Of a DNA stretch of 64,000 nt, positions 3,171-56,276 are shown one piece after another (position 1 is the first letter of the stretch; each line of letters starts with the position of its first letter). Source of the DNA: the human T2T-CHM13v2.0 reference genome, Homo sapiens; the NCBI RefSeq assembly GCF_009914755.1, contig NC_060926.1; one strand, 5' to 3'. The position numbers were made by a program, and so were the translations under genes. The notes beneath the pieces were generated by a model that was given only the letters and a program-made list of their open reading frames with translations, was not told where the DNA came from and did not search any database.

Positions 3171-5090
3171 ATGGGGTGGAGAAATATATTTATAGAAAGT
3201 ATTTTTTTAAGTAAATGAGAAATTAGACATAATGTTTTTAACTCTAGAGAAATTGAAAACAGAGCACAGCACATCGGATAAATTCAATAACTATCTTAAG
3301 AATCAGCAAAACAACATGCAGATGGCTGATTGGCAATAGTTTCAGTAGGCAGATTTTGATTAAAATAAAGAAAAACTTTTTAATAATTAAACCTCTCCTT
3401 AAAACATTATGACTTTATGAGGTAACAAGGTAACAAGTACAGCCTTCTGAAAGCATAAACAGCGTTTACATCATCACCCATTACTTAACTAGCAGAGGAG
3501 TTTGTTTGAATAGGCATTTGGACTAGGAGACTTCTAAAGATTTTGTCAAATTTGTGACTTCATTATTTGTTAATTAAGTCCCTCTCCATTCTAAAGCAAT
3601 TTCTGTGATTTTTCTGATTGTGGTAGACTTCACAATTATACTGATTTAAAACACATTACCATGTACTTTCTGGCTCCTAGTAAATTGCTATTCACTTAAG
3701 TGTTATCTCTGAGTCCTAAAGTGTTAACAGACCTACCAAATTATGTGAGGAATCTCGCCTTCCCCCACACCCCAACAAGCTTAATTTTCTCTTGAATATT
3801 TATCTCACTCTCTCATAACTTTCATATAATTTCAAACTCTCCAAAACACACCCAAAAAGGGAGCTGAAGGACAGGAAGGGATTATATATTTTTTCCATGG
3901 TATATTCTCTTCTAATGGAGAAAGGCAATTAGGCAAAACAAGTTAAAAGCAAGCTAAGCTTTTTCTTCTTGAGCAGTGTAGAACAAAAGGCTTTATCTGA
4001 TTTATGCTAAAACTAGTTCATTGCAAGCAGGATCTTAATACCCTAATCAAAGAAATTTAAAAATAAATTAAAGAAAACATCTCACCTTTGTTACTTAGAG
4101 GCAAAAATTACGACAAAATTATTTCCTGGTCAGCATTCTTAGACTAGCCTCAGCTATTTTTTTTTTCTTGAATTAAGAATAATGAAAATCACCATAAAAT
4201 GAAACAAAAAAAATGTATCACAAAAATATTTTGCAATTCTCTTTCTGCCCCCTTCCATTTTACTTCCTTTCTCAACATTTGGGATTTAATGAGCTTTAAA
4301 AATATGTATACAAAGGATAACTGTCTTTGACTTTTTTGATCTTTCCTCCATGTAGTTTGTGATTTAAAAAGTTAGTTGTTTCCTTTGAAAATTAATTTTA
4401 TTTGACTCATCATTAGACACCCAATACTCTGCCACATGTTCCACTATTGTGCATTCACTATTCACTAGAAATACATTACACACTTTACCGATATTCATAT
4501 ACTTCATCCCCATAGCTAAAAGAGATTTTTAGATTTTACTATCTGTGCTTTACAAATGAGACAAATGAGTTTCAAAGAGGCCAGATAACTTTCCCAAAGC
4601 CACACAGCAGATACATCATGAATCTAGGGTCTAAATGTGGGTCTACTTAACTCCAGTCTCCATGATCCTTGGCTATGCTTGTGCAACAAGATTTCCTCAG
4701 CATCTTTCATGTACCAAGCTCTACCCTTAATTCAAAACTGAAAATATCAAAGCCCCTGCCTTCAGGGGTATCACATTCTAACAACAGTGACTGACCAATA
4801 ATAAATGCAATCCAGCTAAAGAACTTTATAATAGAGGTAAATATTAGGTATAATGGTGTTCCTAAAAAAAGAATAATCCACCTTTCCTAGTTTGGGGTAG
4901 GAGTGCCAGTGTGCGCAATGACTGAATATATACTGCTAACAGCTAATCTTTGACCAAAAAAGTAAGATTCAGTCTATCATTGGATTCTGCTTCCTCTATA
5001 ACTCCAGGAATCAGCCATGCCAAATGTGCTAAGGGCTTCCAACTCTGCACAGATCTCACTGGGGCTAACTCAAGGGCTGGACAATGCCAT

Positions 5091-6722
5091 CTGACAAGTT
5101 CCACTGACATTAAAAAATACTTGTCTGGTGTCCCCTATCATCAAATCCCTCCTTAAGAACAGATACATCAGTTAAAATTATGTGGCACTTTCAAATACTA
5201 TCATCATGATTTATTGCAACAGATGGGACCACTGAGAGATTTATCTTTGGCAAGGGGATAATTTTTGGATCCCCCTCAAATCACATGCAATATGTAACCA
5301 TCTATGAATAGAGCTTCCCTAGACCCTAAAGTTGCCCTCTCAGGCTGCTGTCATTACTCTTTCACATCTATTTCTACTTGGAGAAATGAGTAACACCTTG
5401 CTCTTGCAGTGACAACATTACAATCTCGTGTTCTTGTCCCCATAGGAGCTTGACCTTATCACCCTCATCACTCTCTCCCTGCTTTTTCTTGTATTCACAC
5501 TAATCTTTCAACCACTTCCTTTATAGTTTTTTTTTTAAATCTTACCATACATTTCCATATAATTTCTATACCTGAGTCTGTCATTTCTGAATGTCTAATA
5601 AGAATACTGTCTATTATTTTTCAGTAGAATCCATGGACCAAATTTCTACCCCAATAAAGCCTGAATTTTGTACATACAACATATTCTTGTTTTATTTAAT
5701 GGTTCTTTCTCCACAATTTCCAGAAAAAAGGGTCATTATCATCATCCTTTTCCATTGCATCAAGATATATTTGTGCCAGATTTTAAACGTGAGCTCAGTA
5801 TTTGCTGTTTAGCTTTTCCTTGTCTGGATCCTTTTTCCATTGTACATTATTGAGAATGATCCTAAAACATATTACAAAGTGTCCATAGGTGGGCATTACA
5901 TACAAAGTTTAAAAGTTGCCACATATTCAATTTGATTTTTGTTTTGTCTTTTTGTAAAGCACATGGTCTGAACTCTACACAATGAAAATTTTAATGACCT
6001 TTACAACAAGATTTGAAAGAGCTCAGTGACATCTTTACTAATGTGAAAACTGACAATTTAGTTTCAGGGATGAAGGGTAGATCTAATAGAATAACTACAT
6101 TTTTTTTCAGTCCTTTCATAATGGAGCAACTTCTTTTAAAGCAAGTTAATAATTATTCTTTTTATTATCAAAAAAAGTCTTTCAATGCAGAAGCATTATG
6201 AGGTGAGTTATCAAGTTGTACATGTCACTGCAAGGAAAAAACAAAAATCCTCACCATGAAGATTAAGTCCTCAGCTTTTGGAGGTCAAAGGTCAAATCAA
6301 TGAGTTGATAGCACTAGTCACAAAGTGACTGGGCATTAGATCTTCTGGGGGAAGGAGTGATCTCTTTTAAAGTACAGGATGCCAATCTGCCATAACCTAG
6401 TGAATAAAATCCTCTGTTAAGTTCCTTGAAAAATCTCTATTTTAGAAAATGCATCCCAGGTGATTGTGGGAGTTCCTCAACTTCAGAATTTAGGGAAGCT
6501 CTATACATAGAGGGTTACATATTGCATGTGATTTAAGATGGTACCAAAAATTATCCCCTTGCCAAAGATAAATCTCTCAGTGGTCCTGTCCTGTTGCAAT
6601 AAATCAAGATGATAGTATTTGAAAGTGCCACATATTTTTAACTGATTTATCTGTTCTTACACAGGGAATTGATGACATGGGACACTAGACAAGTATGTTT
6701 TAATGTGAGTGAAACATGTGAG
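5091..6722. repeat. Long inverted repeat; arms 5091-5334 and 6478-6722, ~88% identical, ~1.14-kb spacer
   Basis: Manual reverse-complement alignment: ~28 substitutions and 1 indel over ~244 bp. Confidence 0.95.
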
Positions 6723-7892
6723 TAACTGCTCTGGGCTGTCCCTCTGAGAACTACTAGGTAGAACAATAGTAATGATCTCAAGGTTTGCACTGATGTTTGA
6801 GCAACTGTTCAGATGTTCTGACAGGGAAGTGAGCTACTTGAACATGTTTGATTAAAGAATGGTTCTCCTATGGGCTTTCTCTCTATTCAGGGAATAACAT
6901 GCTTAAAGTAGTTAAACAAAAAAAAAAAAGAAAAAAAAAAGAAATAAACTGGAACCTAGCCTAATAACTGGCATTCGTTCTATAAATAATGAGGACAAAT
7001 GCCAAACCAAAGAGTCCTCACATTCATCAGTCTAGGTGTTGGCTTTCTTTGGGATCAATCAGCTTCTCTCTTCTTCCACCTCATTGGTCAGTGCAAATCC
7101 AACTGCTCTTTAAGACTCTTAACTTCAGCCAGTCCTCTGGAAAAGAATGCCACTGGTCACTGAAAGTACCGATGGGTCAGTGTAAATCCAACCACACTGC
7201 TGAGAAAACAATTCAAAACGCATTTCTGCTGACTGCCAGACAAGGTATTGTTTTATTTAAACAATAAACACCTGAAAGACAGCTGTTAAAAGCCATCACA
7301 TCATTCTTTTAGGTCAGTATAGCATCAAACATTATCTGTTCACTGAGTTTAGAGGAAGATTTCTGGCAGATTTTGCTACTAGCAATCTATGAAATCCTAT
7401 GGCTAACTTGTGAACTAGGGTTTCCCTGTGAAATGGAATCACAATTGGACAATTTAGGGATTTCCATCCCTCTAGCAGCAGTTTAGCCCAATCTAAATTT
7501 GATTGTTTCCTTAAATGGAGTAATTTAATTTTCTCCAAATGTCTACAGACTTTATAATGCCAAGTCCAGAAAATGAAAGGGAAAACTGGGTCAGTTTCCC
7601 AGGTAACTCAAGCCAAAGAATAAAATATTGCTTTGAAATTCCTTATAAAGCATAAGTTGTTTTAATTTTCTGAATTATCTTATTCATTGTCTCAGTAGTG
7701 TAATTGTATAGTCTATACCTGGGTTATGCAATAAAATAGTATTTTAAACATGAAAGAAAATATTAGTCTCAGTTCATAGTTCTTTGAATATCCCTGCATT
7801 TTACCTGTTTGAAAGTTAACACGAATAATTAATAGAGAGTACTTCAGCTGCTCCTATTGTGAATGGACTATCATGGGGTCGTAGGTACATGG

Positions 7893-7946
7893 CAAACAAG
7901 CCAAACAGAAAGGGAGAACTGCAGTTTTGTGCAATAGGCATTTATA
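7893..7946 (-). terminator. Candidate poly(A) site: TATAAA variant plus U/GU-rich downstream element
   Basis: Minus-strand TATAAA at 7941-7946, followed ~25 nt later by ttctccctttctgtttggcttgtttg. Confidence 0.5.
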
Positions 7947-8362
7947 TAAGTAGGTATAATATGAATGCAAAAGAATACATCCTGAAAATGGTAGCTATTA
8001 TTATACATGTGGCTACATTTCTTAATATAAACCGTGAAAACAACCATTCTGAAAAGCTGTGCCTTTACACCACATGTAACAGTCCCACATAAAGCAGAAT
8101 CTCCTTGGTGATTACAGTAATAATGACTACGATTGAATGAAACCCTTTAGCTCTCACTCTCTTTTCGAAAGGACAAGTAATAGGACATACATTTTAAGCA
8201 AAATATGGCCTCAGGCACTGTAGTACTGTTGATGCTTTTTAATTCGAAGATTTCCTACCATTGTAGTTCTTCAGCACAGGTTCTATGGCTTAGGACAGCC
8301 GGCTGTGGACCTGGACGCACTGATAAGTCATCTACTTGGACATACAATAATGTATCTGTGTG
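7920..8362 (-). other. Terminal exon (short coding end plus 3'UTR)
   Basis: Acceptor ttttctttctcag|CACACAG at 8362, no strong donor noticed before the poly(A) signal; phase-1 reading AHRYIIVCPSR* (stop 8328-8330); phase 0 HTDTLL...ELQW*; phase 2 xTQIHYCMSK*. Confidence 0.65.
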
Positions 8363-11300
8363 CTGAGAAAGAAAAATCAAAGGCTTTTGGGTGTTTATGC
8401 CTACTTGATGATCTCGGAAGAATGAATCAATTTATATTTATTTTAGTGAAAGATAAGCTACATGACCATAAAATATAAGATCTACTTCATTTTTTGAAAC
8501 TTTCCATCACAAATTGCCAAAAGATCCTTCCTGAAAACGTCGCAATGAATCATGCTATTCAGAAGCCAAACTTCCAGGATCCTCTTCCTGTTACTTGTAT
8601 AGACACAGAGACATGCAAAGATTAATTACTGTCCCTTTCTTAAAGAAATATTCATTTAAGACTGAGATAATTAGAAAAATGTGAAAAGAAACCTTTGACC
8701 ATCAGTGGTTGTGAAAGTGGTTTTTAAATCTTTTCCAAAATTTCTAGAGGCTTCTTGCATTGGACAGGGAATGAGAAAGATAAAAAGTGTCAAATCTGAG
8801 GCCACTTGACCCACAATACGATACAAAAACTTTTTTGTTTTCGTTGACTTTGTTTATTCTTCATAGAAAGATTTACCTTGGAGCAAAAAGGAAAAAGAAA
8901 TTTAAAAATTAGTGTACTATGAGAAAGAAAAAATATCCAAAGTAAAACCCAAAGGAAACTTGACAAACTTGTTTAGCTAACCAACCAGTTGATCATTAAA
9001 CAAGAATTTATTGAGTATCTATTTGTGCCAGTCACTGCTCTAGGGACCCTTGAGACACATCAGGGCAGGGTAGAGATTTCTGCCTTCACCAGATTCCTTC
9101 CTCTGGTGAAAGGAAGACAAATAAACAAAATAAATGAGAATTTTTTTAAAGTATGTTAAAAGATAGTAATTTCTATGAAGAGAAACTAGATCATGGTATG
9201 GAAGTTCAGGAGACGGCCAAATTGCAGTATTAAGCAGGGTGGTCGGTTTTAGTCTCCTTAACATTTTTAGCAAAATCTTGAAGTATGTGAGAATACTAGC
9301 CAATTATTTAACTATTTCAAGATAATTATATGTTATTTTTCCAATATAGACACCTCAGAAATATATCTACTTAGCTTTTCCTTGAAAATGTGGTATTCAG
9401 ATAACTAGGTGTCAGCAGTCTCAACTATATATCATTCTGTGAAGTCATTAGTATGGCAAAACATTAATTTACAAAAAAAGTTTCATCTCATTGGTACCTC
9501 CAGTCCATGAAAAAATGTCTATCTCCCTGCCTCCTTCAACCAATAAATTTGCATCTGAAAACCAGCATTTTACCAATGATTTCCTAGGGTTGCTCAAAGT
9601 GGAGGCAAGCCTATTTCATCCTCATTATTGTATGTAAGATAAATGTTAAAGTGTAAAGAGTAACAGATATCTAAATAATTTTGATTGAGGATAATCAATC
9701 TTTAATACTTTTTTGTACAAATGTTCTCTGTAGTACGGATCATCAGGACATGGGTGTCTAGTTAGTTTCAACCAAAGACAATGCCAGAATCATAAATAAT
9801 AGGGTATTAATATGATGGAAAGAAGATATTAAGATAATGATACTGTTTTTGTTAAACCTTTGGCAGATTACAGATCAATCGTTTTAAAATCATTTAATCC
9901 AAATGCACACGGTATCTTTTCCTTATTGTCACCATTAATAAAAAGCCTCCTCTATGCACTTTTGCAATTTGTCATGTAACATTAGCCTCAGTAATTGAGT
10001 ATTTTTATTAATCCATATTACAGATCATAAGGTTTTGATATTTGAGGCTAAATTATTTACTCAAGGTCAGTAAGGAACAAATCTGGAATATGAACCCAGC
10101 TCTTATGACTTCAGGACTATTACCCATCAGTTACAAGGTGGAGTTTTACTCCCTCAAATGAAAATCTTGATAATGAGAGACACCGGCATTCTAGATAAAA
10201 ATCTGTGAATGGTTTCCTTTATACTACCACTAAATTTATTGACTAAGAATAAGAAGATGAAACTCTGTTTCATGATTATTAGTGTTTAACTGAAGAAAAA
10301 TCTTTGAAGTCTCCTTAAGGTTGGCTATTCTATATTATGATAGTTATTTTGGTTCAAAATTGTACAAAGTTTTGCCTATCATAATAAGCAGCGTCACCTT
10401 TCATGCCTTGTAACACAAAGAGGGACAATATTATATTATTATATTTTTAGAAGATCTCTAATATTCTTCTCTGCTCCAAAATGTTATGATTCTAATTAAA
10501 GATCCAAATTTATCTAGTTTAAGAGCTAAAGACTATAGAAAATTACATTGTTTTTTAACCTCTGACCAGCACAATTTAGGAAATAGCCTCCTATCAAGCC
10601 TAAAAGTGTTGATGGTTGTTAAAAATCTAGATTAAAAAAGTACATTTGCAAATGTATAAATAACATAAAGTCATTATTTTGGAGAAGAAATAATCAGTTT
10701 AACCTCCATTATGTCATAATTTGAAAGTTTTGCTATTTGCAACATATTTCAGTAAAACGCATCTAAGTTTCTATTCATACCACCTCATTTTTTAAACTAT
10801 TAAAGTACAGAGAGTCCTTTCTGTGCTCCTCTCTGAGGATAAGTTAGTCTACAACAAGTTTAGTAAAAGTCTTGTTTAGATGATCAGTTTTTCAATGTTA
10901 TCATTGTTTAAGGAATGTATAATGACACAGAAAACTTTGCTTCACAGAGCCAGGATTACAGAAATACATTCAAGCTGGGACTTTTATTAGTAATACATGT
11001 AACAAGATTGGTTAAATCACAGCAAGAGATAATACATAAGCATATACTCTTCAATTAGTTTTTCTTGGTTCTACTCAGAACTAATGAACATGTAAGCTAA
11101 AGATGAACTAGTAAACAAACATTGAATTCTAAATAGTCACATAGCCTTCTATGTGTACTGTATAGATAAAAGTAGATATTTAATGTCTGATATTATAAGG
11201 TGAAACTCCGGTCTTCCCACGGTCTGCGGCTGTGAGTTAAGGGGATCCAGTATTGCAAGAGTAGAGGTAACACAGTAGAAAATTTAAACAAATATTCTTA

Positions 11301-31953: not shown

Positions 31954-32529
31954 AAGTCATGCATGCCTCAGAAATGGGGATACGTTTCAAGAAATGCATT
32001 GTTAGGTGATTTCATCCTTGTGCAAGCATAATAGGGTGTACTTGAACAAACCTGGATGGTATGGCCTACTACACACCTAGGCTATCTGGTATAGCTTATT
32101 GCTTCTAGGCTATCAACCCATGTAGCATGTTACTGTACTAAATGCTGTAGACAACTGTCATACAAGGTAGGTATTTGTGCATTTAAACATAGGAAAGGTA
32201 AAGTAAAAATATGATTTTTTTTTTAATGGTACACCTGTGCAGGGCACTTACCATGAATGGAGCTTGCAGGACTGAAAGTTACTCTGGGCAAGTCAGACAG
32301 TAGATAGTGAGTAAATGTGAAAGCCTAGGACATTACTATACACTATTGTAAACTTTATAAACATGGTACATTTAAGCTACACTAAATTTATAAAAAATGA
32401 AAATTAAGGTATGTGTGCTCGATGGCTATTATGTCACTAGGCATTTTTCAGGTCCATTACAATCTTGTGGAACCATCATCATATATGGAGTACATTGTTG
32501 ACTAAAACGCTGTTATGCCACACCTGACT
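31954..32529. mobile_element. Tigger3-family DNA transposon relic
   Basis: TIR-like ends (a)agtcatgc...gttatgccacacctgact and typical internal sequence. Confidence 0.75.
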
Positions 32530-32842
32530 TCATTGTCAATATCACTATCAGTATTTTTGTCAGAACCATTCAACAAGACTCTAGGAAGTTCCAAACTTTC
32601 CCATATCTTCCTGTCTTCTTCTGAGCCCTCCAAACTATTCCGATTTCTGCCCGTTACCCAGTTCCAAAGTTTCTTCCACATTTTTGGGTATCTTTATAGC
32701 AGTACCCCACTCCTGATATCAATTTTCTGTATTAGTCTGTTTCACACTGCTATAAAGAACTACCTAAGACTGGGTAATTCATAAAGAGTTTAAATTGACT
32801 CACAGTTCTGCATGGCTGAGGATGTCTCAAGAAACTTAAAAT
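32523..32842 (-). mobile_element. Inverted local copy of the MaLR LTR/internal junction at 35313-35633
   Basis: ~94% identical to the reverse complement of 35313-35633 by manual alignment; parallel ORF translations 32515.. and 35371.. Confidence 0.9.
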
Positions 32843-35068: not shown

Positions 35069-37423
35069 TGCTATGGTTTGGCTCTGTTTCTCCACCCAAA
35101 TCTCATCTAGAATTGTAATCCTAACGTGTTGGGAGATTGGCCTGATGGGAGGTGATTGAATCACAGGTGCAAACTTCCCCCTTGCTGTTCTCATGATAGA
35201 ATTCTTATGGGATCTGGTTGTTGGATAAGTGTATGGCTCTTCCCCTTCCTGCTCTCTCTCTCTTCTGCCATCATGCAAGATATGCCTTGCTTTCCCTTCA
35301 CTTTCCACTATGATTTTAAGTTTCTTGAGACCTCCTCAGCCATGTAGAACTCTGAGTCAATTTAAACTCTTTATGAATTACCGAGTCTCGGGTAGTTCTT
35401 TATAGCAGTGTGAAACAGACTAATACAGAAAATTGGTACCAGGAGTGGGGTACTGCTATAAAGGTACCCGAAAATGTAGAAGCAACTTTGGAACTGGGTA
35501 ACGGGCAGAAATTGGAATAGTTTGGAAGACTCAGAAGAAGACAGGAAGATATGGGAAAGTTTGGAACTTCCTAGAGTCTTGTTGAATGGTCCTGACCAAA
35601 ATACTGATAGTGATATTAACAATGAAGTCCAGGCTGAGGTGGTCTCAGATGAAGATGAAGAACCTCTTGGGAACTGGAGTAAAGGTCACTCTTGCTATGC
35701 TTTAGCAAAGGAGACTGGTGGCATTTTTCTCCTGCCCTAGAGATCTGTGGAACTTTGAATTTAAAAGAGATGACTTAACATGTCTGGCAGAAGAAATTTC
35801 TAAGCAACAAAGCATTCAATATGTGACCTGGCTTTTTCCGAAAGTGTACAGTCACATACGTTCACAAACAGATTACCTGATATTGGAACTTATGTTTAAA
35901 AGGGAAACAGAGCATAAAAGTTTTGAAAATTTGCAACTGGACCATGTGGTAGAAGACAAAAACTCATTTTCTGGGGAGAAATTAAAGCTAGCTGCAGAAA
36001 TTTGCATAACTAAAGAGAAGTCAAATGTTAATAGCCAAGACAATAAGGAAAATATCTCCAGGACATTTAGTATATCTTTGGGTAGCCCCTCCCATCAGAG
36101 GCCTTGAGGCCTGGGAGGGAAAAAATGGTTGCATGGGCTAGTCACATGGCCCAGCTGCTCTGTTATGCCTTGAGATATGGCACCCTGCATCCCAGTCACT
36201 CCAGTTCCAGTCATGGCTAAAAGGGGAGAAGGCACAGCACAGGCCATGGCTTCAAAGGATGCAAGCCCCAAGCCTTGGCAGCTTCCACATGGTGTTGGGC
36301 CTGCAGGTGCATAGAAGACAAGAGTTGAGCTTTGGAGCCACTGCCTAGAGATTTCAGAGGATGTATGGAAACACCTGGATGTCCAGGCAGAAATCTACTG
36401 TGGGAATGGAGCCCACATGGAGAACCTCTACTAGGGCAATGCAGAGAGGAAATATGGGGTTGGAGCCCCCACAAAGAGTTGCCACTGAGGCACTGCCTAG
36501 TGGAGTTGTGAGAAGGCAGCTACTCCAGACCCCAGAATGGTAGATCCACCGACAGCTTGCACCATGAACCTGGAAAGGCTGCAGGCACTTAACACCAGCC
36601 TGTGAAAGCAGCCACAGGATCCATACCCTACAGAGCCATGGAGGTAGAGCTGCCCAAGGCCTTGGGAGCCCCACTCTTGCATCTGCATGTCTTGGATATG
36701 AGACATGAAGCCAGGGGAGATTATTTTGGAGCTTTAAGATTTAATAACTGCCCTGTTTGGTTTTAGATTTTCATGGGGCCTGTAGCCCCTTTGTTTGGGC
36801 CAATTCCTCCCATTTGGAAAGGGAACATTTACCCAATGCCTAAACTTCCATTGTATCTTGAAAGTAACTAACATGTTTTTGATTTTACAGGCTCACAGGA
36901 GGAAGAACCTTGCCTTGTCTCAGATGAGACTTTGGACTTGGACTTTTGAGTTAATGCTGAAATGAGTTAAGGTCTTGGGGGACTGTTGGGAAGGCATGAT
37001 TGGTTTTGAAATGTGAAAGAGACATGAGATTTGGTAGGCGCCAGGGATGGAATAACATGGTTTGGCTCTGTGTCCCACCCAAACCTTATCACAAATTGTA
37101 ATCCCCATGTGTTGGAGTTAGGGGAGTGGCCTGTGGGTGGTGACTGAATCATGGAGCAGACATCCCCCTTGCTCTTCTGGTGATAGAATTCTTAGGAGAT
37201 CTGGTTGTTTGATAAGTATGTGGCTCTTCTCCTTTGTGCTCTCTCTCTCTCTCTTCTGCCATCATGTAAGGCATGCCCTACTTCCCCTGCACCTTCTGCC
37301 ATGATTGAAAGTCTCCTGAGGCCTCCCAGCCATGAGGAACTGTAAGTCAATTAAACCTCTTTTCTTTATAAATTACCAAGTCTCAAGCAGCTCCTTACAG
37401 CAGTGTAAAAATAAACTAATACG
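35069..37423 (+). mobile_element. Full-length MaLR provirus (MSTA/THE1D-like): LTR 35069-35427, internal region, LTR 37053-37423
   Basis: Two LTRs (..atggtttggctctg..actaatac) flanking ~1.6 kb of MST/THE1-int with decayed ORF fragments. Confidence 0.9.
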
Positions 37424-53900: not shown

Positions 53901-56276
53901 TGTTATGCACACATACACACATATGCACACACATCTATTGCTGATCTCAGTTTCAAGAAACATGGAAATTAAAACTAGAAATAACATTTCTTGATAGCTC
54001 ATGTAAACATGCTGTTTTAACAAATGAAAACTTGAGATACAGAGAAGTTAAATGACTTGTCCAAAATTGCAAAGTTATTTATATAAAATTTCAAAAAATT
54101 ACTTATAGTCCTGGACTGCTTCTATAACCATTTTCTTATACACAAAAATTCTCCGATGTTGAAATCATTAAAACAAAAACAAAGTACTACTTTGACTCTT
54201 CCACTGTTCTCAAAAGAATTTTTTTTTTCATGTCATGTTGCTTTCTCTTAAGTTGTATGAAATGTCCTGGGACTCCTCTTATCTAACAGATGAAAAAATA
54301 AACATTAAAGATCAGGTATTTATCTCCATAAAAAGGTTAGCGAGAAAGAGAACAACAGATCTGCCTCCATAAGGCATTAATTTTCCATATCAGATGGAGA
54401 CAGAAGCTCTTCAAAGGACTTAACAACTTTTTCCCAGCTTTCTTTCTCTCCTCATCCCTCCCTCCCTCCCTCCCTTCTTCCCTCCTTCCCTCCTTTCCTT
54501 CCTTTCCTACCTAGCAATGTAACTTTTCTTAAGTAGTCCTCTCTTCTTAGGGTAAATGTACTCCGCATTTTAAATGATTTGAAACCTACCAAGGTCTGTT
54601 TTGACCTAAATAATGGAGGCTTAAAAAAGAATTATTACAGAAAATAAGCACTGTGGTAAACCCCAAGCTGGTGAAGTTGGTGCACAACAAGAGAGACATA
54701 TTATCACCTACATGGAGGAAGTATATATGACACCCATGGAAGGACCACACAAATCTATGAATTTCTAGACCTTGCTTCCTCTCAGGATTTACCTTTAGCT
54801 TCTCAGGCGTGAACTTGCAGAAGCTCTCTGCCAGAAATGAGTGCTCAGAGTATTATTTACACTCTGCCTCTGGGCCTATATCAGGGGACTGCAAGGGCTC
54901 TTCTACCCTGTATGTTAGCAGACAAGATGTAAACGTTTAACCAAAGCAATAAAAACAAAAAAAAGCAAACATACATCAAAACCAAAATTGTGTATTTCCA
55001 AGAAAATTACTATTCTCTACTGAGTTCTCACAAATTAACTTGTAACTTCATAGTCAAAATATGATATAAAGCTAACATAATTTAAGCAACTGTCTCTGTT
55101 AATCCTTACATTGGTCTCATTACCACCATTTTCGGGTGAGTAGTATATAAGTTTTTGTAAAAATTAGGTAACATTTGGAACAAATGAACACGTGACTTTT
55201 TTGCCTACTCTCTATTTACAAATATGCTGATACAGAGATAAGACTTTAAAGATTATATGTCCATTGACAGAGAAATAATTATTTATTCCCATCCACTATG
55301 ATATTTGTTTCTCTCGATAATCCTGTGAATTGACTCAAGCATATATGATAGAGGCCCATTTACACATAAGTACATGATAACATGTATTCAAATTACTGGG
55401 AAATCTTGTTAAAATGTAGATTATTTTTCATTAGGTATGGACCTAAGATTCTGCATTTCTAGCAAGCTCTCAGGTGATGCTGATGCTTCTAATTCTCATA
55501 TCACACTGTAAGAAATAAACACACTCTAACCACTAGAAAAAAAAGGGTTATATATGAGATGGATCCATCATTTGCTTTAAATAATTGTACTATACTGACC
55601 AAGGCTATAGATGTTGATCTAATCATATGGTTTATTGTCTTCCACAACAACAACAACAAAAAACCCAACCAGATGCTAGGAAAAAAACACGGACTTTTAT
55701 AGACAGAGTAATGGGGAATACTTAAATCTAGGAAGTTAAATTGAAAAAGAAAGGCTATAATATGATTCATTTGAATTAAGCTAAGCTATTTGGAGAAAAA
55801 TCATTGTAATATCATCAATCAGATCAGATATTTTAACCAATGATTCTAGTCCCTCCAAGAGTACTCTCTGCTTCTGGCCCAAAATGACCCCAAATGGCAA
55901 TCCAGACACAGCATTTGTGATGTTGAATCAGGGTCAACAAGGAGGGATTTTGTTAATTCCTTTCCTCATAATATTATCATTTGTATATAGATACATACAA
56001 CCATATTCTCCACAAAATGGGTTAGTATACCATCTGTTATCTTAGAAAATCTAGACGCTTTTCTATTAGCTATTACAACTGAGAATAATTTCTGGACTAG
56101 GCCTGCTAGTTAAAAAAAAAAGAAGAAGAAAAATTTAAATAAAAAACTAAAGGCAATATAAGAAATCTCAAGCATTTGCAGAATAAAATTGCATTTTACC
56201 TTAAAATAACTTTTGCACCAATGAATGATTCTGAGACTGCTGCTGACTATTTTCCAAATTAACAGAATACTCTCAC

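What the first reader, a model, noticed from the sequence alone, without database searches (positions are those of the whole stretch)
5091..6722. ~244-bp inverted repeat of apparently unique sequence just downstream of the gene's 3' end
Seen: arms 5091-5334 and 6478-6722, ~88% identical with a 38-bp perfect core; I do not recognise them as Alu, L1 or LTR. Read-through or long-3'UTR transcripts would fold a long dsRNA stem (ADAR, Staufen or Dicer substrate). The arm contains AATAAA, so each strand meets a poly(A) signal in its second arm (minus 5210-5215; plus 6598-6603), inside the stem. Inference: a structured extended 3'UTR or bidirectional terminator, or else the long TIRs of an unrecognised DNA transposon.
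Basis: partly seen in the sequence, partly recalled or inferred. Interest (0 to 1): 0.7.

Follow-up and report, generated by a model that had tools for sequence, protein, structure and literature searches.

The report
Old inverted duplication in neurexin-1 intron
A 245-base stretch inside a neurexin-1 intron occurs twice, flipped and 1.1 kb apart; it is likely an old local DNA-copying error of a well-known kind, predicted to fold in the unspliced RNA, and we found no sign that it has a job.

Summary
The repeat is real: arms 5091-5334 and 6478-6722, 216 of 245 columns identical (88.2%), longest exact run 43. It is not a 3' UTR element. It lies inside an intron of full-length NRXN1, 4.2 kb past a short isoform's end, which has its own AATAAA; 51% of 244-base tiles here contain AATAAA. 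It is not a transposon end: genome searches return only the two arms, while a control old repeat gave 407 candidates; no target-site duplication, longest frame 73 codons. It fits the published 'inverted duplication' class (under 1 kb, copied within 5 kb; PMC4617611). The right arm likely is the copy, since it seems to split an old repeat relic (moderate evidence). A second such duplication lies 27 kb away and a third turned up on chr3. A stem is predicted in nascent RNA and is probably edited somewhat, like inverted Alus; no sign of selection was found. Ordinary; low interest.

The parts
5091..5334 (.). Left arm; likely the original (donor) sequence
   Evidence: direction inferred
6478..6722 (.). 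Right arm; inverted copy at 88.2%, likely the inserted one
   Evidence: direction inferred
5335..6477 (.). Spacer of 1,143 bases; no match elsewhere in the genome, no long reading frame
5226..5268 (.). 43-base exact core (partner 6544-6586); length not beyond chance
6429..6468 (+). Possible 5' piece of a decayed short repeat relic (MER5-like; family name recalled, from no call), ending about 10 bases before the right arm
   Evidence: upstream-only test found no match
6737..6757 (+). Possible 3' remainder of the same relic, starting 14 bases after the right arm
5210..5215 (-). AATAAA inside the left arm; one of 74 on this strand in the window
6598..6603 (+). AATAAA inside the right arm; one of 118 on this strand in the window
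10983..10988 (-). AATAAA 18 bases inside the annotated end (10965) of the short NRXN1 isoforms; likely their own poly(A) signal
   Evidence: and the hub's gene table

Best explanation
The two arms are a two-copy local inverted duplication inside an NRXN1 intron, likely made once by template switching during DNA replication or repair and likely neutral since. Shown: two copies only, inverted, 1,143 bases apart, 88% identical, no target-site duplication, no long frame. Inferred: synthesis at about 6477 switched to the opposite strand of the nearby left arm, copied 245 bases and returned, splitting an old repeat relic (about 65% sure of this direction). Inferred age: arm-to-arm distance 0.125, roughly 30-45 million years at recalled primate rates, older if gene conversion acted. 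Predicted side effects: a stem in nascent NRXN1 pre-mRNA that ADAR would edit at a modest level and that would leave with the intron; and perhaps a small share in local fork stalling, as claimed for inverted self-chains in this gene.
For: Only the two arms found genome-wide (2 of 2 candidates; 26-mer with up to 3 mismatches), while a control old repeat gave 407 candidates, 39 non-self hits scored at 73-88%. Size and spacing match the class in PMC4617611 (passages): 54% of sequenced inversion calls were inverted duplications, nearly all under 1 kb inserted within 5 kb, not typically tied to retrotransposition. Two motifs 280 bases apart across the right arm (35 without it) occur 20-45 bases apart 377 times genome-wide versus 4 for the control; each half ranks in the top 2-3 sites of both strands of the window. 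Same architecture at 32526-32842 / 35313-35629, where direction is clear, and on chr3 around a glycosyltransferase exon-like stretch.
Against: No orthologue or empty allele could be examined, so the one-copy state was not seen. The split-relic evidence is partly circular (family members were picked with motifs from this site): the joined relic scored 11.2 bits against a motif-fixed null with 99th percentile 11.5 and maximum 14.4, and sequence upstream of the motif gave no match on its own. No junction microhomology can be read at this age. Transitions to transversions are 12:16, low for plain neutral decay, and unexplained. The genome search warns that no match does not prove rarity.
Confidence: 0.76

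Rival explanations
1. The arms are the scar of a small inversion: staggered breaks duplicated the 245 bases and the 1.1-kb spacer was flipped.
For: Would give the same two-copy inverted layout (established mechanism, recalled). Consistent.
Against: Of four junction models scored against the relic profile, only 'right arm inserted, spacer unflipped' joins the two relic halves (11.2 bits; the two inversion models give single halves at 5.9 and 1.2 bits; the left-arm-inserted model gives no hit). That test is weak.
Confidence: 0.12
2. Whatever its origin, the stem has been kept by selection as an RNA element that would tune use of the short NRXN1 isoform's last exon, read-through termination or nearby micro-exon splicing.
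For: Strong predicted stem on the transcribed strand; G-U-compatible changes 8 on the sense strand versus 4 on the other; 4.2 kb from an alternative last exon and 9.3 kb from a 12-base exon. [quoted passage not shown]
Against: 8 versus 4 is not significant (p 0.39); 16 of 28 changes are transversions that break pairs; AATAAA occurs in 51% of tiles; no Rfam family reaches its cut-off (best E 0.36); the other pair in the window is predicted to be more stable (-531 kcal/mol); no splice site or exon is annotated in either arm or the spacer.
Confidence: 0.07
3. The arms are long terminal inverted repeats of an unrecognised, very low-copy DNA transposon (Mutator-like) whose interior is the spacer.
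For: Long inverted ends around an AT-rich interior resemble such elements (recalled).
Against: No third copy of arm or spacer although family members of this age should be easier to find than the control; no flanking direct repeat of 4 or more bases exact, or 8 or more with one mismatch, within 6 bases of the ends (a 2-3 base duplication was not testable); longest stop-to-stop frame 73 codons; the outermost fifth of the arms is the most diverged (8 of 28 changes).
Confidence: 0.04

Closest known systems
'Inverted Dup' structural variants (Sudmant et al. 2015, PMC4617611; passages read)
   Same: Duplicated stretch under 1 kb, inverted, within 5 kb of the other copy, no retrotransposition marks.
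   Different: Those are polymorphic in living people; this one has 12% arm divergence and is likely old and fixed. An empty allele was not seen.
Minus self-chains near NRXN1 deletion breakpoints (Chen et al. 2013, known only through the review PMC4330246, section 11)
   Same: Short (150 bp-1 kb) low-copy pair in inverted orientation, in the same gene.
   Different: Whether this pair is on their list or near a mapped breakpoint could not be checked; the primary paper was not read.
Inverted Alu pairs edited by ADAR in introns (PMC4066801 abstract; PMC7006430 passages)
   Same: About 250-300-base imperfect intronic stem; editing falls with distance on a scale of about 800 bases, and most ADAR activity is in intron-intron pairs that stay in the nucleus.
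   Different: Arms are two-copy sequence, AT-rich (38% GC, no CpG), not Alu; editing here is predicted, not observed.
Long-TIR DNA transposons (Mutator-like; recalled)
   Same: Long inverted ends around a spacer.
   Different: No family, no target-site duplication, no transposase remnant seen.

Membership tests
Local inverted duplication (Inverted Dup class) | Duplicated stretch under 1 kb | tested here: met
   244/245 bases
Local inverted duplication (Inverted Dup class) | Inverted and within 5 kb of the other copy | tested here: met
   1,143-base spacer
Local inverted duplication (Inverted Dup class) | Partner is the local copy, not a dispersed family | tested here: met
   positive control
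Local inverted duplication (Inverted Dup class) | No retrotransposition marks (target-site duplication, A tail) | tested here: met
   arm ends read
Local inverted duplication (Inverted Dup class) | One arm is an insertion into previously continuous sequence | tested here: inconclusive
   For. Marginal: (near the null's 99th percentile). Negative sub-test:
Local inverted duplication (Inverted Dup class) | An allele or orthologue with one copy | not testable with these tools
   No related genomes are held for this window
Minus self-chain | 150 bp-1 kb, few alignments, inverted pair | tested here: met
Minus self-chain | Listed in the self-chain track or near a mapped NRXN1 breakpoint | not testable with these tools
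   Primary papers not read; search for NRXN1 plus 'self chains' gave 0 papers
DNA transposon with long terminal repeats | Dispersed copies | tested here: not met
DNA transposon with long terminal repeats | Target-site duplication | tested here: not met
   (4 bases or longer)
DNA transposon with long terminal repeats | Transposase frame or shared interior | tested here: not met
Functional 3' UTR stem or bidirectional terminator | Lies in an annotated last exon or between convergent 3' ends | tested here: not met
   Gene table; 4,243 bases beyond 10965; no plus-strand gene listed in the window
Functional 3' UTR stem or bidirectional terminator | Poly(A) signal beyond background | tested here: not met
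   3,232 of 6,376 tiles carry AATAAA; downstream make-up like 4 or 5 of the other 10 nearby sites
Functional 3' UTR stem or bidirectional terminator | Pair-preserving substitution bias | tested here: inconclusive
   G-U 8 versus 4, p 0.39
Functional 3' UTR stem or bidirectional terminator | Covariation across species, editing sites, 3'-end or small-RNA reads | not testable with these tools
   No orthologues or RNA data available

The most novel reading that the evidence does not exclude
The 5' part of this NRXN1 intron is a long-lived hotspot of template-switch copying, and this fossil stem has been co-opted to control the short NRXN1 isoform's 3' end or micro-exon choice while also priming the deletions seen in patients.
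Probability: 0.06. Interest if true: 0.55.

Novelty: new member of a known kind. Interest (0 to 1): 0.14.

Why it matters
As it stands it matters little: a fixed example of a described mutation class, in a gene where short inverted repeats were already linked to deletion breakpoints. It could serve as a handy two-copy (uniquely mappable) test site for intronic dsRNA editing in neurons. Two such duplications in 64 kb hint at local enrichment, which would tie ancient and present-day instability of NRXN1 together, but no proper background rate was obtained.

Tried and rejected
Rfam scan of 4000-8000: 1 match, E 0.36, far under its cut-off. Fold covered only 35 bases of the left arm and says nothing on the stem; one search replaced it. 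A sequence-only model of the two arms found only the two arms in the window; a profile search of the whole genome was not available, so very old (under about 70% identical) relatives remain possible. First relic profile (10.2 bits) was rebuilt from 25 of the 30 loci with typical spacing, then from 49 hits; upstream-only test gave no score for the real sequence. Clustering of mismatches (p 0.19) and core length (p 0.07) not significant. No genome-wide background sample was obtained, so enrichment in NRXN1 is open: the 34 unrelated 3-kb loci (103,537 bases) had local inverted pairs in 4 loci, and the 5 arms tested from them were all Alu-like, but 3-kb loci are too short for a fair rate. Literature on this exact locus: searches listed no paper naming it in title or abstract start (listings only). 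Supplement look-ups for NRXN1 and for coordinates converted from recalled offsets found nothing relevant in PMC13629690 (3 files, one cut) or PMC4617611 (1 file; its tables may not have been among the text); the supplement of PMC5398296 could not be read and that study capped spacers at 1,000 bases. PMC5829575: outline and abstract only, not used. Chen 2013 and Zhou 2013 were not read and may list this pair.

Full report
Observation. The window holds the inverted repeat as described: 5091-5334 against 6478-6722, 216 of 245 columns identical, 28 substitutions and one gap, E 3e-85. The spacer is 1,143 bases. The exact core is 43 bases, not 38, and is within chance for this many differences (p 0.07). 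It is one of 6 inverted pairs in the window with arms of 100 or more bases and a span up to 6 kb; 4 of the 6 are Alu-like.

Setting. By the hub's gene table the repeat lies inside an intron of full-length NRXN1 (minus strand; intron 5 by my recall of exon numbering). The '3' end' nearby is that of short isoforms at 10965, 4,243 bases from the nearer arm. That end has its own AATAAA at 10983-10988, and six more minus-strand AATAAA lie between it and the first arm. The window has 118 plus-strand and 74 minus-strand AATAAA, and 3,232 of 6,376 tiles of 244 bases hold one on some strand. No plus-strand gene is listed in the window.

Copy number. Either arm as query returned 2 of 2 candidates, the two arms. 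A 26-base core pattern with up to 3 mismatches matched only the two arms (control 1). The whole 3.3 kb (4300-7600) gave only an A-rich tract and one 60-base hit outside the element. As a positive control, an old short repeat at 55370-55520 gave 407 candidates, with 39 non-self hits at 73-88% among the 40 scored. A transposon family young enough to leave ends 88% alike should be easier to find than that. There is no target-site duplication of 4 or more bases, and the longest of 10 stop-to-stop frames of 50 or more codons is 73. The transposon reading is therefore unlikely; very old relatives below about 70% identity are not excluded.

Which arm is the copy. I noticed from recall that the flanks of the right arm look like two halves of a MER5-type relic (name recalled). 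Two short motifs, one 13 bases before the arm and one 22 bases after it, occur 20-45 bases apart 377 times in the genome against 4 for the reversed control; in the 30 fetched loci the gap is 20-33, mostly 30, and here it is 35 once the arm is left out. With weight matrices from those loci the left half (6433) is matched or beaten by 1 other site on both strands of the window, the intact copy at 55447, and the remainder (6737) by 2 others. Against this: the loci were chosen with motifs from this site; the joined relic scored 11.2 bits where a motif-fixed shuffle reached 11.5 at the 99th percentile and 14.4 at most (500 shuffles); and the sequence upstream of the first motif gave no match alone. 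Among four junction models only 'right arm inserted, spacer unflipped' joins both halves. I put the direction at about 65%.

Comparators. A second pair, 32526-32842 / 35313-35629 (317 bases, 94%), shows the process clearly. The right copy sits in a continuous multi-copy element: 39 of 39 other hits span both its edges at 78-84%. The left copy is a cut-out piece: 94% to its neighbour but 84-87% to 39 other hits, none of which reaches beyond the piece by more than 4 bases. A third pair appeared by chance in the list, on chr3: 278-base arms, 95%, spacer 1,146, around an exon-like frame that matches Pfam glycosyltransferase family 2 (E 4e-6); the relic profile runs 11 bases past the arm edge in one copy and stops at the edge in the other. 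Such pairs enclose host sequence and are not transposon ends.

Mechanism. Shown: a two-copy, inverted, closely spaced duplication with no mobile-element marks. Inferred: one template switch during replication or repair copied the left arm in reverse into a site 1.1 kb away. Sudmant et al. (PMC4617611, passages) found that 54% of sequenced inversion calls were such inverted duplications, nearly all under 1 kb and within 5 kb, probably from replication errors. A review (PMC4330246, section 11) reports that short inverted self-chains are over-represented near NRXN1 deletion breakpoints; the primary paper was not read. The distance between arms (0.125) suggests some 30-45 million years at recalled rates.

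RNA. On the transcribed strand 228 bases of one arm are predicted to pair with the other (duplex -344 kcal/mol; the second pair gives -531). Editing of inverted Alus decays with distance on a scale of about 800 bases (PMC4066801 abstract), and intronic duplexes are far less purged than those in mature RNA (PMC7006430 passages). So some editing is likely and would not imply function. No sign of selection: G-U-compatible changes 8 versus 4 (p 0.39), 16 of 28 changes transversions, no Rfam family. Covariation, editing and 3'-end data could not be tested.

Unexplained. The 12:16 transition-to-transversion count is low (P 0.03 or 0.007 for recalled neutral fractions of 0.62 or 0.67; the second pair is 13:5). 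Error-prone copying at birth, multi-base changes or chance could each give this.

Verdict. A real feature, a new member of a known kind, likely neutral. Interest 0.14.

Noticed in passing
window 32526-32842 and 35313-35629: Second local inverted duplication: a 317-base piece of a multi-copy LTR-type element (MaLR-like, name recalled) copied 2.5 kb away in reverse; 94% to its neighbour, at most 87% to other copies.
   Followed up: yes
L042:913-1190 and 2337-2613 (G000:C3, about 16.198-16.200 Mb): Inverted duplication of 278 bases at 95% around a glycosyltransferase exon-like stretch; spacer 1,146, almost equal to the 1,143 here, probably coincidence. A stem enclosing an exon could affect its splicing; not tested.
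   Followed up: partly
window 10983-10988: AATAAA with an upstream UGUA and a G/U-rich downstream stretch, 18 bases inside the annotated end of the short NRXN1 isoforms.
   Followed up: partly
window 55379-55514: Fairly intact copy of the short repeat family whose relic seems split by the right arm; used as positive control.
   Followed up: yes
window 35073-35426 and 37057-37422: Direct pair at 78%, likely the two long terminal repeats of one decayed element; lower identity than the 94% inverted piece copied from it.
   Followed up: no
window 7088-7106 and 7176-7194 (approximate): Short direct repeat of about 19 bases, some 88 bases apart, read by eye.
   Followed up: no
window 4550-4660: MIR-like relic (name recalled); one 60-base hit at 80% elsewhere in the genome.
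   Followed up: no
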